From an uncultured Sphingomonas sp. (GTDB lineage: Bacteria; Pseudomonadota; Alphaproteobacteria; Sphingomonadales; Sphingomonadaceae): a stretch of 64,000 nt of DNA. Positions 1,962 through 7,979 of the stretch are shown one piece after another (the first letter of the stretch is position 1; the number at the start of each line of letters is the position of its first letter). Position numbers and translations under genes: made by a program. The notes under the pieces are model-generated. The model made no database searches. It was given only the letters and a program-made list of their open reading frames with translations, and was not told the DNA's origin. The stretch is from NCBI RefSeq assembly GCF_913774285.1, contig NZ_CAJYHX010000017.1, positions 2,873 to 66,872 of the forward strand. Direction: 5' to 3'.

Positions 1962-3140
1962 TCAGCGCTTGGCCGCGACAGCGCCGGCAAGCGTCACCAT
2001 TTGGGCAACGCCGGTGGAATCGGGCCCGGCAGGATCGGGCAGCTGCAGCGAGACGCTACCGCCAAGCTCTTCTGCTGCCGGACCTGCAAGGAAGCCCGCA
2101 AAGCTGCCCGTGCCTGCGGTACCGTTCAGTTGTGCGAGGCTTGCGCCGCCGGTCTGGGTCAGCGGGATGGTCACGTCGTAGCTGGCGCCGGTATTCCTTT
2201 CGAGGGCGCTCTTCGCGGTAAACTTCAGCGTGAGCGTCCCGCGATAACTTTGGGCCGCGAAGTCGACGGTCACCTGCAAGGTGCCGCTTACCGCATAGAC
2301 GATTCCATCCAGCGGCTTCGTTCGCGTCGCCCTGCCGGAGACCACGCCGTTATAGGTGACGGTGCCGCTTCGGGGCACACTGGTCGTCGCCGTCTTCTCG
2401 CCGAACGCGAAGTAGCGACGATCGTTGGTTTCGCCGCTCGTGTCCGACACGGAGAACGTATACAGGCCGAAGCTGGCATAGCTCAGCGCGAGCAGATCGT
2501 TGCTGCTGCCCGATCGAAACAGTTCGAGCGTCTGGTAGTAGCTCGTCCGGCCGATGCCCGGGTAACAGCGACGCGAATATACGAGGTAGCGCGTGTCGGA
2601 TCTGGCGGAATCGATGTCACTCGGCCCGAAAGACGCACTTTCGTCGACCCCCGAGTAGAGCGGATTGGATGCGACGCGGATCGTATAGCGCTGTGTCGCG
2701 CTGGCATAGCTGAATGCCTCCGCCAGGGTCGGATCGGCGGTCTTGTACAACGTGATCGCGCCGTAATTGCTATATTGCAGCAGCGTGCTCGCCGTGTCGA
2801 ACGTGCGATCGAAGACCGTGTCTGGAGCAGGGCAGGTATAGGTAGCCGGGGCCGTGCCTAACGTCGATGTCGGCGTGGGCGTGGGCGTGGGCGTGGGTGT
2901 CGGCACCGGAGTGGGCGTCGGCGTCGGGGTCGGCGTGGGCGTCGGTGTTGGCGTCGGAATCGGCGGCGTTGGCAGCGGCGAGGGCGCGGGCGCAGGCGCC
3001 GGTGTCGGACTCGGCGCGGGGGTAGGCGTCGGCGTGGGGGTCGGCACGATTACCGTACCGGCTCCCCCGGTCGTGCCTCCACCGCAGCCGCCTAGCAGAA
3101 GAAGTGCAGCAGACGTTCCGCGGCCAATACCGAATCGCAT
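1962..3140 (-). CDS. Lipoprotein with Pro-Thr-rich stalk and C-terminal TbpB/HpuA-like beta-barrel (paralog 1)
   Basis: Lipobox LLGG-C, ~60-aa (PT)n tract, C-terminal [62 protein letters not shown]. Confidence 0.75.
2869..3045. repeat. Degenerate hexamer tandem repeat (GGCGTG/GGCGTC) encoding the Pro-Thr stalk
   Basis: Four perfect GGCGTG copies at 2872-2895, then degenerate copies. Confidence 0.9.
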
Positions 3141-3324: not shown

Positions 3325-4479
3325 TCAGCGCTTAGCGGCGGCGGCTCCCACCAAGGTTACTGGATTGATGATACCGGCATAATCCGGTCCGGCTGGATCG
3401 GGGATCTGCAAAGAGAAGCTGCCACCAAGCTCTTGTGCTGCAGGACCGGCAAGGAAACCAGCGAAGCGGCCTTGGCCCGCGGCGCCACTCAGTTGCGTAA
3501 GCGATGCGCCACCTGTTTGCGTCAAGGGGATGATTATGTCGTACGGCGCCGATTCGCCCGATGTCGCCTTGAGGGTGAGCGTGCCGGTGAACGTCTGCGC
3601 CACGAAGTCTACGGAAATCTGGATCCTTCCACTGATCGAATATTTTCGCGGATACACGGAGTCGTTTCGCGTCGCGAAGCCCGAGACGATACCAGTATAG
3701 GTCGATACGCCGGTGCGGGGCAGATCCGATACCGCTGTCCTCACCCCATATGCAAATAGACGACGATCATATAGGTCATAGGATCGCGGCTGTGAGAAGT
3801 TGACGGTGTACATGCCGAAGCTTGCATAGTCGAGTGCAAGCAGGTCATTGTCTGCGCCAGGTCTAAAGAGCTCAAGTTCCGCCTGAAAGGCACCCTCTTT
3901 GGGCTGTAGTCCGTCGGAACAACTGCGCTTGTACACGATGGTGTGGGCATTGGAGCGATTGGCCAGCACGTTCTCGGGACCGAACGAAATGCTCTCGTCG
4001 AGGTCGGAGAAAAGGGGATTGGACGCTACACGAAGGGTGTAGCGTTGGGTTGCAGCAGCGTAGCTGAAGGCCTGGGCCATCACCGGATCCGCGGACGTGA
4101 GATCATGCACGCCATCAACAGCATTGCGATACTGCATCATGGCGCTGGACGCGTAGAAGGTGCGGTCGAACATCGTGTCTGCTGGACACGTCCAGCGTAC
4201 CGGTGTCCTGGAGGGCGTTGGACTAGGTTCTGGCGTAGGCGTCGGTGTGGGCGTTGGGCTGGGTTGCGGTGTCGGCGTGGGCGTCGGGATTGGCGGCGTC
4301 GGCAGCGGCGAGGCTGTCGGGCTGGGTGCTGGCGTCGGGCTCGGCGGTGCGGGGGTCGGAGTCGGGGTCGGGGTCGGGCTGGGCAGGATCACCGTGCCGG
4401 CGCCGTTGCCGTTTGACTGGTTGCACCCCGCGAGGGCGAATAGAGACAGCGAAATCGCACTGACCGAACTATAACGCAT
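3325..4479 (-). CDS. Lipoprotein with Pro-Thr-rich stalk and C-terminal TbpB/HpuA-like beta-barrel (paralog 2)
   Basis: Start moved to [19 protein letters not shown] (lipobox LAGC). Shares [56 protein letters not shown] and the AAKR end with paralog 1. Confidence 0.75.
4210..4390. repeat. Degenerate hexamer tandem repeat encoding the Pro-Thr/Pro-Ser stalk of paralog 2
   Basis: GGCGTC/GGGGTC/GGGCTG units; translates as [18 protein letters not shown]... Confidence 0.85.
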
Positions 4480-4847
4480 AAGATAGAATTCCCCCTTTGC
4501 TTGGCTTTGTCGGCGGTCCCGATCGGATGCGCAAGAGCATCCAGTCTCGGCGATCCACTCTTCTCGGCTCAATTCACAGGCCGAACTGTGCCACTGAGAT
4601 TCGCGGCGCGTGTTGCGTGTCGGTCGGCCGCGCGACCTGATCGCGTAGCCGGTCGTCCCAAAGTAGAGCTCGCAAACCGCATCTGGGCGGGGGCGCGCGC
4701 GGTCACAAAATGCGCGTCTCATTCCGCGCCAATGGGTCGGCCGGCCGTCCCCCGCTTTTGATTAGACGAACCGTGCGGCGATCCCTATGTGTCGTGCGTT
4801 GCCGCCCGTCGGTTGCGACATTGCCACCGTGTACCACAGGGTTTCGC

Positions 4848-5108
4848 TTGGAACTGCTGCTGCTCCTCACTGCGCTTTTCGCGAGCCTGACCGGCGTGTC
4901 GGGCGAGCGTGGGCTGCGCGCCGTTCAGGGCGTGGCCGTGGTTCGCGTGGCGGAAGCGGCGCAGGCGGCGGTCGCCCCGTCGCGCCACATCGTCGCCGCT
5001 GCGGCGGCGCTCCCCGCGCTGGTGCGGCTCGTCACGATCCCGGTGTTCCACGTCGCCACCGCTCCGCGGCCGCCGCTTCGCCTCGCCTTCGAGCAGCGGC
5101 GCGAATAG
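4848..5108 (+). CDS. Small protein upstream of secA (hydrophobic N-terminus, C-terminal ...EQRRE); candidate secretion-monitor leader peptide
   Basis: From TTG 4848: MELLLLLTALFASLTGVSGERGLRAVQGVAVVRVAEAAQAAVAPSRHIVAAAAALPALVRLVTIPVFHVATAPRPPLRLAFEQRRE* (86 aa). GC-rich third codon positions; same strand as secA and 126 nt before it. Confidence 0.65.
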   Translation: MELLLLLTALFASLTGVSGERGLRAVQGVAVVRVAEAAQAAVAPSRHIVAAAAALPALVRLVTIPVFHVATAPRPPLRLAFEQRRE

Positions 5109-5234
5109 CCTTTCCGGCCCGCGCGTTCGGGCCCTTCTTCCTTTCGTCGCCGCGCGTGTGCGCGGTGCGCCCGTGATGGCTCCGCTTCGTCCGGCAGCCG
5201 TCGCGCATCCCATCCAAACAGGTCAGGAATTCGC

Positions 5235-7979
<2,745 letters not shown>

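What the first reader, a model, noticed from the sequence alone, without database searches (positions are those of the whole stretch)
4848..5108. Unannotated secA leader ORF: candidate sphingomonad SecM-like translation-arrest monitor
Seen: an 86-aa ORF (TTG start) on the secA strand, ending 126 nt before secA. It has a signal-like hydrophobic N-terminus (ELLLLLTALFASLTG), an Ala/Val-rich linker, and a Pro/Arg-rich C-terminus (VATAPRPPLRLAFEQRRE*). Known: SecM, MifM, VemP, ApdA and ApdP are small proteins with an N-terminal targeting signal and a C-terminal ribosome-arrest motif, encoded just upstream of secA, yidC or secDF, whose translation they control. Inference: this ORF has the same layout but no exact RAPP/RAGP/RGPP motif (it has PRPP and a terminal RRE). 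It could be an unrecognised arrest-peptide class that couples secA expression to secretion capacity.
Basis: partly seen in the sequence, partly recalled or inferred. Interest (0 to 1): 0.8.

Follow-up and report, generated by a model that had tools for sequence, protein, structure and literature searches.

The report
Conserved leader peptide gene before secA
A small gene just in front of the essential secretion motor gene secA is real and conserved across Sphingomonas and relatives, and it has the layout of a secretion-sensing ribosome-stalling leader peptide with a new end motif, but no stalling has been shown.

Summary
The 86-codon ORF (window 4848..5108, TTG start) exists as described and ends 126 nt before secA (5235..7979). 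An open frame alone means little in 67% G+C DNA. Conservation makes it real: at least 588 homologous protein clusters, all from Sphingomonadales and all named 'hypothetical protein'. They are 80-93 aa long from a shared start. All 8 homologues looked up lie directly upstream of secA.

The N-terminal hydrophobic segment (M-E/N-LLLLLTALFASLTG) is near-invariant in protein but varies at synonymous sites. The middle evolves neutrally. The last five residues, E-(R/Q)-R-(L/R)-E, always abut the stop codon.

A conserved promoter lies upstream of the ORF, and the ORF-secA gap has no -10-like hexamer in 15 of 18 loci, so the two probably form one operon. A G+C-rich hairpin with a pyrimidine-rich tail starts 1-8 nt after the stop in the 15 core loci.

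Erythrobacteraceae carry an analogous secA leader with a classical signal peptide and an invariant ...DRALE-stop.

Best reading (about 0.45): a new class of Sec/YidC monitoring leader peptide, probably stalling at the stop codon. SecM-style unmasking of the secA ribosome-binding site is not supported in silico. No Pfam or NCBIfam match, and absent from the held parts of the 2024 arrest-peptide catalogue.

The parts
4762..4767 (+). Promoter-like -35 hexamer TTAGAC. Relatives have TTGGAC, ATGGAC or ATTGGC.
   Evidence: A motif (-35)-N17-CTATGT lies 28-58 nt upstream of the leader ORF start in 16 of 18 loci. Calling it a promoter is inference from the consensus. No transcription start site data were available.
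4785..4790 (+). Promoter-like -10 hexamer CTATGT.
   Evidence: The hexamer is invariant in 15 loci and TTATGT in one. The ORF-secA gap has no CTATGT-like hexamer in any of 18 loci, and no TAnnnT hexamer in 15 of 18.
4838..4841 (+). Shine-Dalgarno-like purine run (AGGG), 7-10 nt before the TTG start.
   Evidence: A purine-rich element (AGGA, GAGA or AGGG) sits at the same distance in all loci.
4848..5108 (+). Leader ORF of 86 codons plus the TAG stop, with a TTG start.
   Evidence: The start codon is TTG in 20 of 22 loci and GTG or ATG in the other two. In-frame stops lie 1, 5 and 6 codons upstream in L092, L006 and L081, which fixes the start. The family holds 109, 74 and at least 588 members by three searches. 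pN/pS is 0.34 for the N-terminus, 1.0 for the spacer and 0.58 for the C-terminus.
4851..4895 (+). Codons 2-16, ELLLLLTALFASLTG: the hydrophobic export or insertion signal.
   Evidence: Conservation is 3-4.3 bits per position across 229 members, with synonymous variation in the codons. Mean Kyte-Doolittle hydropathy is 2.3 over residues 3-17. AlphaFold models a helix over residues 2-19, the only confident part of the model.
5088..5105 (+). Codons 81-86, F-E-Q-R-R-E: the conserved C-terminal motif. The family consensus is F/D-E-R-R-L-E.
   Evidence: Counts across 229 members: E at -5 in 201, R at -3 in 223, L or R at -2 in 228, E at -1 in 227. The stop follows directly and varies between TAG, TGA and TAA.
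5090..5103 (+). Small RNA hairpin or palindrome inside the last codons. Here it is CGAGC-AGCG-GCGCG with one mismatch. In the FERRLE group it is a perfect (UU)CGAGC-nnnn-GCUCG(AA).
   Evidence: It is the only helix in the RNAalifold consensus of 15 loci, and it shows no covariation. Synonymous sites in the stem are biased: Arg84 is CGG in 14/15, Leu85 is CTC in 11/12. The loop codon Arg83 varies.
5116..5133 (+). G+C-rich hairpin GGCCCG-CGCGTT-CGGGCC, starting 7 nt after the stop codon.
   Evidence: The scan flags it as terminator-like. The 15 core loci each have a hairpin starting 1-8 nt after the stop, with different sequences. Mean dG is about -14.9 kcal/mol against about -11.4 for shuffles.
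5134..5146 (+). Pyrimidine-rich tail CTTCTTCCTTTCG.
   Evidence: T makes up 4-9 of the 12 nt after the hairpin in the 15 core loci, against a T fraction of 0.13-0.22 for the whole gap. Strict terminator criteria are met in 5 of 22 loci, where 0.15 would be expected. Relaxed criteria (at least 4 T in 8) are met in 13 of 22, counting those 5.
5225..5229 (+). secA Shine-Dalgarno sequence AGGAA, within the conserved ...ACAGGAA... region.
   Evidence: It is conserved in alignment A3. The modelled unpaired probability is about 0.5, with or without a ribosome at the leader stop codon.
5235..7979 (+). secA, 914 aa.
   Evidence: The ORF is listed. Orthologues carry the SecA_DEAD, SecA_PP_bind, SecA_SW and SEC-C Pfam domains.

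Best explanation
The ORF is the translated leader of a leader-secA operon. I propose that it acts as a secretion or membrane-insertion monitoring substrate, analogous to SecM or MifM but unrelated to them in sequence.

Proposed steps:
1. The ribosome translates about 86 codons. Meanwhile the very hydrophobic N-terminus (residues 2-16), about 70 residues ahead of the C-terminus, emerges and engages the targeting and translocation machinery.
2. The invariant C-terminal E-R-R-(L/R)-E, read with its strongly biased codons, slows or blocks release at the adjacent stop codon.
3. A ribosome held at the stop would cover the 5' arm of the G+C-rich hairpin that starts 1-8 nt downstream.
4. The hairpin with its pyrimidine tract therefore cannot form. 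This element could be an intrinsic-terminator-like or Rho-entry-like attenuator.
5. More transcripts, or more translatable transcripts, then reach secA.
6. Efficient export pulls on the nascent chain, relieves the stall, and lowers secA expression.

Shown: the ORF is real; it is selected as protein at both ends with a neutral spacer of conserved length; it is always next to secA; it shares a promoter region with secA; it is followed by a hairpin and pyrimidine tract.

Inferred: translation arrest, its location at the stop codon, force-dependent release, and attenuation as the output.
For: - Family size: 109 homologues, 74 representatives at 50% identity, at least 588 clusters at 90% identity. 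All named sources are Sphingomonas, Allosphingosinicella or Sphingomonadales.
- Synteny: 8 of 8 look-ups lie directly upstream of secA on the same strand, with a gap of 107-130 nt, while the upstream neighbour varies. All 7 Sphingomonadales loci found through secA alone carry such an ORF. Only 2 of 48 secA loci from other orders do.
- Protein-level selection: invariant residues show synonymous changes. pN/pS is 0.34 at the N-terminus and 1.0 in the spacer. Length is 80-93 aa, with the C-terminal motif always in frame and always at the stop.
- Operon: a conserved -35/N17/CTATGT motif lies upstream of the ORF, and 15 of 18 gaps have no TAnnnT hexamer. Metatranscriptome contigs span 4754-5454, which is weak support.
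- Hairpin and T-rich tail after the stop.
- Codon bias in the last codons.
- No globular fold: mean pLDDT 63, only the N-terminal helix confident.
- Erythrobacteraceae have a parallel secA leader with a classical signal peptide and an invariant ...GSDRALE-stop.
- Precedent: stop-codon arrest peptides upstream of secA, secDF and yidC, such as uA_NSP-stop, are documented (PMC10987492).
Against: - There is no experimental evidence of stalling, and the motif resembles no characterised arrest sequence.
- The family has no Pro at or near the C-terminus, unlike most known Sec-linked arrest motifs.
- The N-terminus lacks a positively charged n-region. Residue 2 is Glu in 170 of 229 members. The flanking charge is near zero, so export competence and topology are uncertain.
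- Placing a ribosome at the stop does not change the modelled accessibility of the secA ribosome-binding site or start codon (0.50 to 0.50 and 0.47 to 0.47).
- RNAalifold finds no conserved long-range helix and no covariation.
- The tail is a weak U-tract, interrupted by C.
- Hairpins are only about 3.5 kcal/mol better than shuffles of this G+C-rich sequence.
- Part of the C-terminal conservation is at the RNA or codon level, so the peptide motif is not cleanly separable from an RNA element.
- The RNA contigs extend upstream of the predicted promoter and may contain DNA.
Confidence: 0.45

Rival explanations
1. The ORF encodes a stand-alone small membrane-anchored or secreted protein that is co-transcribed with secA and acts in trans. 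For example, it could be a tethered peptide whose C-terminal E-R-R-L-E-COOH binds SecA, SecYEG or another partner. The hairpin after its stop would be an ordinary structural or partial terminator element.
For: A conserved N-terminal hydrophobic helix, a neutral tether of fixed length and a short conserved C-terminal motif also fit a membrane-tethered short linear motif. The gene has its own Shine-Dalgarno-like element and start codon. The Erythrobacteraceae version has a cleavable-looking signal peptide and semi-conserved cysteines in the mature part. Modelled secA ribosome-binding-site accessibility is unaffected by a ribosome at the stop.
Against: Synonymous-site bias in the last codons and the hairpin placed 1-8 nt after the stop point to a cis role for the mRNA. 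The spacer evolves at pN/pS of about 1, and the model has no fold. Linkage to secA is strict while all other neighbours change. The gap shows no separate secA promoter.
Confidence: 0.25
2. The ORF is a leader whose translation matters but which does not sense secretion and has no programmed arrest. Ribosome passage through the last codons and the stop would simply open or close the downstream hairpin. This would be classical coupling or attenuation, setting secA transcription or mRNA stability according to translation initiation at the weak TTG start.
For: The TTG start is conserved in 20 of 22 loci. A hairpin lies in the last codons and a terminator-like hairpin with a pyrimidine tail follows the stop. 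The promoter lies only upstream of the leader.
Against: This does not explain why the N-terminal 16 residues are the most conserved part of the peptide, with free synonymous change. It does not explain why Erythrobacteraceae keep a classical signal peptide in the same position. No alternative antiterminator pairing was found.
Confidence: 0.2
3. The ORF is a chance open frame in G+C-rich intergenic DNA. On this view the conservation reflects a non-coding RNA or DNA element of the secA leader.
For: Open frames are common here. Five overlapping ORFs of over 115 aa occur in other frames, and the +2 frame is open in 14 of 18 relatives. The 3' end carries an RNA-level signal.
Against: Third-position changes leave invariant amino acids intact at both ends. 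The codon-position G+C pattern is coding-like. pN/pS is 0.34 at the N-terminus. The N- and C-terminal motifs stay in one frame despite length differences of 80-93 codons. The start position is fixed by upstream in-frame stops, and a Shine-Dalgarno-like element sits at constant distance. Rfam gives no hit.
Confidence: 0.03

Closest known systems
SecM of Escherichia coli and other Enterobacterales, the secA leader and secretion monitor
   Same: It is a small ORF directly upstream of secA and co-transcribed with it. It has an N-terminal export signal, a long spacer and a conserved C-terminal segment. Its proposed role is to couple secA expression to export capacity (described in PMC10987492).
   Different: There is no sequence relationship: no Pfam or NCBIfam hit at E<=10. 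There is no FxxxxWIxxxxGIRAGP or RAGP motif. The conserved motif abuts the stop codon, whereas SecM arrests five codons before its stop. The peptide is about half SecM's length. A stem-loop that hides the secA ribosome-binding site and is opened by the stalled ribosome is not supported here. Instead, a terminator-like hairpin follows the stop.
[quoted passage not shown] 2024 (PMC10987492)
   Same: They are uORFs of secA or secDF with an N-terminal localisation signal. Their conserved motif is the very C-terminus, and stalling occurs with the stop codon in the A-site. Residues at -5, -3 and -1 are important in uA_NSP-stop. Here -5, -3 and -1 are the most conserved positions.
   Different: The motif differs (E-R-R-L/R-E, with no C-terminal Pro or Lys). 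The phylum differs (Alphaproteobacteria, against Bacteroidota and Firmicutes). There is no homology. Arrest is untested here.
MifM of Bacillus subtilis, the YidC monitor
   Same: It has an N-terminal hydrophobic anchor very near the N-terminus without a classical cleavable signal, a cytosolic spacer and a C-terminal regulatory segment. It monitors membrane insertion.
   Different: The downstream gene is secA, not yidC2. There is no sequence similarity. MifM arrests during elongation at several consecutive codons (my own knowledge).
ApdP and the RAPP-like (RQH) family, including the alphaproteobacterial ApdP upstream of secDF2
   Same: They are alphaproteobacterial, with a leader ORF upstream of a Sec component gene.
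   Different: The defining [RQH]-[AG]-P-P, RAGP or RAPG motif is absent from all 232 Sphingomonas-type and 25 Erythrobacteraceae-type sequences held. The window's own PRPP is not shared by any relative.
TnaC and SpeFL, leader peptides that stall at their stop codon and control transcription termination
   Same: The geometry matches: a conserved C-terminus next to the stop, and a termination-related element immediately downstream that a ribosome held at the stop would occlude. The TnaC and SpeFL mechanisms are from my own knowledge.
   Different: Those peptides sense small molecules (tryptophan, ornithine), have no export signal, and act on Rho. Here the input would be export and the element looks like a hairpin plus pyrimidine tract. 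All of this is untested.

Membership tests
Sec/YidC monitoring substrates (in-silico criteria of Sakiyama 2021 and Fujiwara 2024, PMC7897499 and PMC10987492) | A small ORF of unknown function directly upstream of secA, secDF or yidC, in the same orientation. | tested here: met
   The ORF has 86 codons and ends 126 nt before secA. The same arrangement holds in 8 of 8 look-ups and in 7 of 7 Sphingomonadales loci anchored on secA. There is no Pfam or NCBIfam family.
Sec/YidC monitoring substrates | An N-terminal secretion signal or transmembrane segment. | tested here: inconclusive
   There is a strongly hydrophobic, near-invariant segment at residues 3-16 (Kyte-Doolittle 2.3; helix 2-19 in the AlphaFold model). 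It has no basic n-region and near-zero flanking charge. SignalP and DeepTMHMM were not available. The Erythrobacteraceae counterpart has a textbook signal peptide, MRRHLLALFALLSGIAALQAPAHA.
Sec/YidC monitoring substrates | [quoted passage not shown] | tested here: met
   E-(R/Q)-R-(L/R)-E carries 3.4-4.2 bits per position across 229 members. The middle of the peptide carries less than 2 bits.
Sec/YidC monitoring substrates | A spacer of more than 30 residues between the localisation signal and the conserved C-terminal end. | tested here: met
   About 65-70 residues separate residue 16-19 from residue 86. Total length is 80-93 aa across the family.
Sec/YidC monitoring substrates | The nascent chain arrests its own translation (peptidyl-tRNA accumulation, toeprint). 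| not testable with these tools
   This needs in vitro translation or ribosome profiling. No suitable public run was found.
Sec/YidC monitoring substrates | The arrest is released by engagement with the Sec or YidC machinery. | not testable with these tools
   This needs genetics or biochemistry.
Sec/YidC monitoring substrates | The stalled ribosome remodels mRNA structure so that the downstream gene is induced. In SecM this means exposing the ribosome-binding site. | tested here: not met
   The ribosome-binding-site exposure form of this feature is not met. The unpaired probability of the secA Shine-Dalgarno sequence and start codon is unchanged when stop-14 to stop+13 is masked (22 loci). 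There is no conserved long-range helix. An alternative output, occlusion of the hairpin 1-8 nt after the stop, is geometrically possible but unproven.
SecM family (Pfam SecM; motif FxxxxWIxxxxGIRAGP) | Sequence homology to SecM, or presence of its arrest motif. | tested here: not met
   There are no Pfam-A or NCBIfam hits at E<=10 for the window peptide or four relatives. No RAGP occurs in any member.
RAPP-like / RQH arrest peptides (ApdA, ApdP, ApcA, uA_RQH, uDF_RQH) | A conserved [R/Q/H]-[A/G]-P-P, RAGP or RAPG motif near the C-terminus. | tested here: not met
   The motif occurs in 0 of 232 Sphingomonas-type and 0 of 25 Erythrobacteraceae-type sequences. PRPP also occurs in 0 of 232 relatives.
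Stop-codon arrest leader peptides (uA_NSP-stop, TnaC, SpeFL type) | A conserved motif that ends exactly at the stop codon. | tested here: met
   227 of 229 members end in ...E, directly followed by the stop. The stop codon itself varies between TAG, TGA and TAA.
Stop-codon arrest leader peptides | Impaired peptide release with the stop codon in the A-site. | not testable with these tools
   This needs toeprinting or a release assay.
Transcription-attenuation leader peptides | A leader ORF followed by an intrinsic terminator, with a mutually exclusive antiterminator pairing. | tested here: inconclusive
   A hairpin and T-rich tail are present: 5 of 22 loci under strict criteria against 0.15 expected, and 13 of 22 under relaxed criteria, counting those 5. 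The U-tract is weak, and no conserved antiterminator helix was found. No 3'-end mapping data were available.

The most novel reading that the evidence does not exclude
Sphingomonadales regulate secA with a previously unrecognised class of monitoring peptide. Its invariant E-R-R-(L/R)-E end (D-R-A-L-E in Erythrobacteraceae) would block peptide release at the stop codon. The parked ribosome would prevent formation of a terminator-like hairpin 1-8 nt downstream. Secretion capacity would then be read out by transcription attenuation rather than by unmasking of the ribosome-binding site. This would be a proline-free, termination-step arrest motif and a new output logic for a Sec monitor.
Probability: 0.2. 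Interest if true: 0.8.

Novelty: new variant of a known kind. Interest (0 to 1): 0.62.

Why it matters
Only a handful of secretion-monitoring leader peptides have been characterised. The 2024 domain-wide catalogue shows them to be patchy, non-homologous and mostly built on RAPP-like proline motifs.

This family is conserved across an order, has hundreds of members, and has a short proline-free, charge-rich motif fixed at the stop codon. If it stalls, it would enlarge the known ways of inhibiting the ribosome. It would also give a natural system for studying force-sensitive termination arrest.

It would explain how an essential gene, secA, is tuned in Sphingomonadales, a group important in plant microbiomes, bioremediation and gellan/sphingan production.

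Even if it does not stall, the result corrects annotation. A conserved, probably translated gene and its promoter lie in what looks like a 756-nt intergenic gap.

Tried and rejected
- Rfam scan of 4300-5400 at E<=10 gave only two sub-threshold hits (mir-m107-1, rne-II), which I judge to be chance.
- Pfam and NCBIfam gave no family.
- SecM-type sequestration of the ribosome-binding site was modelled with partition functions over 22 loci, with and without a ribosome footprint at the stop. There was no effect.
- Single-sequence minimum-free-energy folds suggested long-range pairing between the leader 3' end (UUCGAGC) and the secA start (AUGCUCGG). The RNAalifold consensus did not retain it, and there is no covariation. 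I dropped it.
- Homology between the Sphingomonas-type and Erythrobacteraceae-type leaders is not established. hhalign gives 24% probability over 14 columns, and HMM E-values were 0.06-1.3 for L003-L005. I treat them as positional and architectural analogues with a similar end motif.
- RNA evidence:
  - Only assembled contigs were available.
  - Two metatranscriptome contigs span the leader and secA, but they also extend upstream of the predicted promoter.
  - The S. melonis runs gave 4-5 kb contigs that look like DNA.
  - No depth profile, transcription start site or 3'-end data could be obtained.
- Frame openness as evidence was rejected, because other frames are open almost as often.
- My first terminator scoring picked the most stable hairpins rather than the first one. 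I replaced it.
- The single genome-contig scan went on the SecA N-terminus and returned only 7 Sphingomonadales loci. A scan with the leader peptide would have given more DNA for covariation analysis.
Full report
**1. Observation**

The window holds an ORF at 4848..5108 on the + strand. It has a TTG start, 86 codons and a TAG stop, and it lies 126 nt upstream of secA (5235..7979).

The open frame alone carries little weight in DNA of 67% G+C. Five overlapping ORFs of 116-142 aa occur in other frames of the same stretch. In relatives the +2 and antisense frames are stop-free in 14 and 12 of 18 loci. Codon-position G+C is 0.84/0.52/0.87, which is coding-like.

**2. It is a real, conserved gene**

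- A word-indexed search found 109 homologues, nearly all 85-87 aa.
- An exhaustive profile search found 74 representatives at 50% identity, all 82-134 aa, nearly all matching end to end.
- A profile search of the 90% clusters found at least 588.
- Every named source is Sphingomonas, Allosphingosinicella, 'Sphingomonadales bacterium' or an unclassified alphaproteobacterial or Pseudomonadota MAG. Every name is 'hypothetical protein'.
- There is no Pfam-A or NCBIfam family.

Conservation pattern across 229 members anchored at the shared start:
- Length is 80-93 aa, with a mode of 86.
- Positions 3-16 carry 3-4.3 bits each (LLL[LF]L[TS]A[LM][FL]A[SG]LTG).
- The last five residues carry 3.4-4.2 bits: E in 201 of 229, R/Q/K, R in 223, L or R in 228, E in 227.
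- The middle carries less than 2 bits.
- The window's PRPP occurs in none of the 232 homologues held, and no RAPP-like motif occurs in any.

Selection acts on the protein:
- The invariant N-terminal residues are written with varying codons: CTG/CTC/CTT/CTA/TTG, ACT/ACC, GCG/GCC, GGC/GGT/GGA/GGG.
- C-terminal Arg and Glu codons vary, and the stop codon varies between TAG, TGA and TAA.
- Nei-Gojobori pN/pS is 0.34 for residues 2-16, 0.69 for 17-45, 1.0 for 46-80 and 0.58 for 81-86.

The start is fixed:
- It is TTG in 20 of 22 loci, GTG in S. melonis and ATG in L002.
- In-frame stops lie 1, 5 and 6 codons upstream in L092, L006 and L081.
- A purine-rich Shine-Dalgarno-like run sits at constant distance.

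AlphaFold on a 50-sequence alignment gives a helix at 2-19 (the only confident part), a weak helix at 27-52 and disorder after that. Mean pLDDT is 63 and pTM is 0.23. The product is not a folded domain.

**3. It belongs to secA**

- All eight homologues whose contigs could be looked up lie directly upstream of secA on the same strand. The gap is 107-130 nt. Identity to the window peptide runs from about 60% down to about 30%.
- The upstream neighbour changes between loci: TonB_C, DUF6454, hypothetical genes, or a divergent GFA gene. In the window it is a TbpB-like lipoprotein.
- In loci fetched through the SecA N-terminus alone, all seven Sphingomonadales loci (L001-L007) have a same-strand ORF ending 95-150 nt before secA, with a hydrophobic N-terminus. 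Six of them end in ...R-x-(R/L)-E-stop; L003 ends in ...DRARL-stop.
- As a control, only 2 of 48 secA loci from other orders have any same-strand ORF of 45-170 aa with a hydrophobic N-terminus in that position. One of them (L062) carries RGPP and looks like the published uA_RQH class.
- The window has a single copy of the family.

**4. A parallel family in Erythrobacteraceae**

The ORF upstream of secA in Porphyrobacter (L007) and Qipengyuania (L005) defines a family of 25 proteins of about 91 aa. It has:
- an invariant classical signal peptide, M(R)RHLLALFALLSGIAALQAPAHA;
- a variable middle;
- an invariant end, (I/L)G(S)DRALE-stop.

Profile-profile comparison with the Sphingomonas family is not significant (24% probability over 14 columns). 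I therefore call the two families analogous rather than homologous. They share position, size, architecture and a [D/E]-R-x-L-E-stop ending.

**5. Transcription and RNA features**

Promoter:
- A motif TTAGAC/TTGGAC/ATGGAC-N17-CTATGT lies 28-58 nt upstream of the leader start in 16 of 18 loci. In the window it is at 4762-4767 and 4785-4790.
- The leader-secA gap has no CTATGT-like hexamer in any locus, and no TAnnnT hexamer in 15 of 18.
- The simplest reading is one promoter and one leader-secA transcript.
- Two metatranscriptome contigs from relatives about 95% identical span 4754-5454 without a break. These contigs also run on upstream, and RNA libraries can contain DNA, so this is weak support.

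Last codons:
- In the FERRLE group, TTC GAG CGN CGG CTC GAA is a perfect palindrome, (UU)CGAGC-nnnn-GCUCG(AA).
- In the window clade (FEQRRE), the hairpin keeps 4 of 5 core pairs (5090-5103).
- It is the only helix in the RNAalifold consensus, and it shows no covariation.
- Synonymous sites within it are biased: Arg84 is CGG in 14 of 15 (19% in secA), Leu85 is CTC in 11 of 12, and Glu86 is GAA in 12 of 15 (21% in secA). The loop codon varies.
- The lineages are not independent, so the p-values are overstated. Still, some RNA- or codon-level constraint overlaps the peptide motif.

After the stop:
- The 15 core loci each have a G+C-rich hairpin, of unrelated sequence, starting 1-8 nt after the stop. 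Mean dG is about -14.9 kcal/mol against about -11.4 for shuffles.
- The next 12 nt are T-rich, with 4-9 T, against a T fraction of 0.13-0.22 for the gap.
- In the window this is GGCCCGCGCGTTCGGGCC (5116-5133) followed by CTTCTTCCTTTCG. The scan tool flags it as terminator-like.
- Strict terminator criteria are met in 5 of 22 loci, where 0.15 would be expected from the background density. Relaxed criteria are met in 13 of 22, counting those 5.
- Such sites are rare elsewhere in the window: 5 in 19.6 kb over both strands.
- A ribosome with the stop codon in its A-site protects about 13 nt downstream (general knowledge of toeprint geometry). It would therefore cover the 5' arm of this hairpin.

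secA ribosome-binding site:
- The secA Shine-Dalgarno sequence and start codon are about 50% unpaired in partition-function models.
- This does not change when stop-14 to stop+13 is masked (22 loci).
- A SecM-style unmasking is therefore not supported.

**6. Mechanism**

Best-supported reading (about 0.45): the ORF is a translated leader that monitors export or membrane insertion.
- The hydrophobic N-terminus, about 70 residues ahead of the C-terminus, would be outside the ribosome when the ribosome reaches the stop.
- The invariant E-R-R-(L/R)-E at the stop would delay release.
- The parked ribosome would prevent the downstream hairpin and pyrimidine element from forming, whether that element is an intrinsic terminator or a Rho-entry site. 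This would raise secA expression.
- Successful export would pull the chain and relieve the stall.

The anatomy, conservation, synteny and operon structure are shown. Arrest, its site, force release and attenuation are inferred.

Rivals:
- A trans-acting small membrane or secreted protein with a C-terminal binding motif (about 0.25).
- A leader that acts only through its translation, without arrest or secretion sensing (about 0.2). This does not explain the N-terminal conservation.
- A chance ORF or purely non-coding element (about 0.03). Synonymous-site evidence contradicts this.

**7. Comparison with what is known**

The family meets all four in-silico criteria used by the Chiba laboratory for monitoring substrates: a uORF of a sec gene, an N-terminal localisation signal, a conserved C-terminus and a spacer over 30 aa (PMC10987492). 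One caveat applies. The N-terminal signal of the Sphingomonas type lacks a basic n-region and was not run through SignalP or DeepTMHMM.

It is not a SecM homologue and not a RAPP-like (RQH) peptide.

[quoted passage not shown] In these the ribosome stalls with the stop codon in the A-site, and residues -5, -3 and -1 matter. The same positions are the most conserved here.

The published catalogue lists 13 classes. The word Sphingomonadales appears only in its genome list, not in the class scripts or the held parts of the candidate tables; some tables were cut when stored. No paper in the library combines Sphingomon* with 'arrest peptide', or with secA and 'leader peptide'. That screen relied on annotated uORFs and on signal or transmembrane predictors, which may explain the miss.

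**8. Verdict**

Arrest remains untested.

This is a new, order-wide secA leader-peptide family with a novel stop-adjacent motif. I class it as a new variant of a known kind, and it is readily testable.

Noticed in passing
window 1962..3140 (-) and 3325..4479 (-): Two tandem paralogous lipoproteins lie upstream. Each has a lipobox (LLGGC or LAGC), a long Pro-Thr-rich linker and a C-terminal barrel that matches TbpB_B_D and FHBP_C at or near the gathering score. They look like surface lipoproteins of the transferrin-binding or factor-H-binding fold, in a Sphingomonas.
   Followed up: partly
L062:2500-3000 (Aidingimonas halophila, Gammaproteobacteria): A 125-aa ORF ends 87 nt before secA. It has a hydrophobic segment and ...LACRGPPVPTD... 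near its C-terminus. It looks like a member of the published uA_RQH (RGPP) arrest-peptide class.
   Followed up: no
L005:2575-2850 and L007:2589-2864; protein alignment A4: The Erythrobacteraceae secA leader family has a classical signal peptide, an invariant ...GSDRALE-stop and a semi-conserved cysteine pattern (ESCACP...RCP) that a subclade has lost. A 10-bp hairpin in L005 holds the GAA-UAG stop region in its loop.
   Followed up: partly
window 4848 and the equivalent position in 21 loci: The leader start codon is TTG in 20 of 22 loci. This is unusually constant for a start codon and suggests selection for weak initiation.
   Followed up: partly
window 5106-5109 and the equivalent position in 20 loci: The base after the stop is never A or T. 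TAG is always followed by C, and TGA is followed by G, or once by C. This could be composition or a selected termination context.
   Followed up: no
window 4483..4753: The 5' part of the 756-nt intergenic region, upstream of the leader promoter, is not shared with close relatives. RNA contigs diverge upstream of 4754. It has only sub-threshold Rfam hits. Its content is unexplained.
   Followed up: no
window 5200..5234 and alignment A3 columns 140-165: The secA translation initiation region...CA(T)TCAGATACGACAGGAA..., is conserved at the nucleotide level across Sphingomonas and Allosphingosinicella, well beyond the Shine-Dalgarno sequence. The pyrimidine tail after the hairpin often contains UUCCU or UUUCC, which is complementary to that sequence. 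I saw this by eye and did not test it.
   Followed up: no
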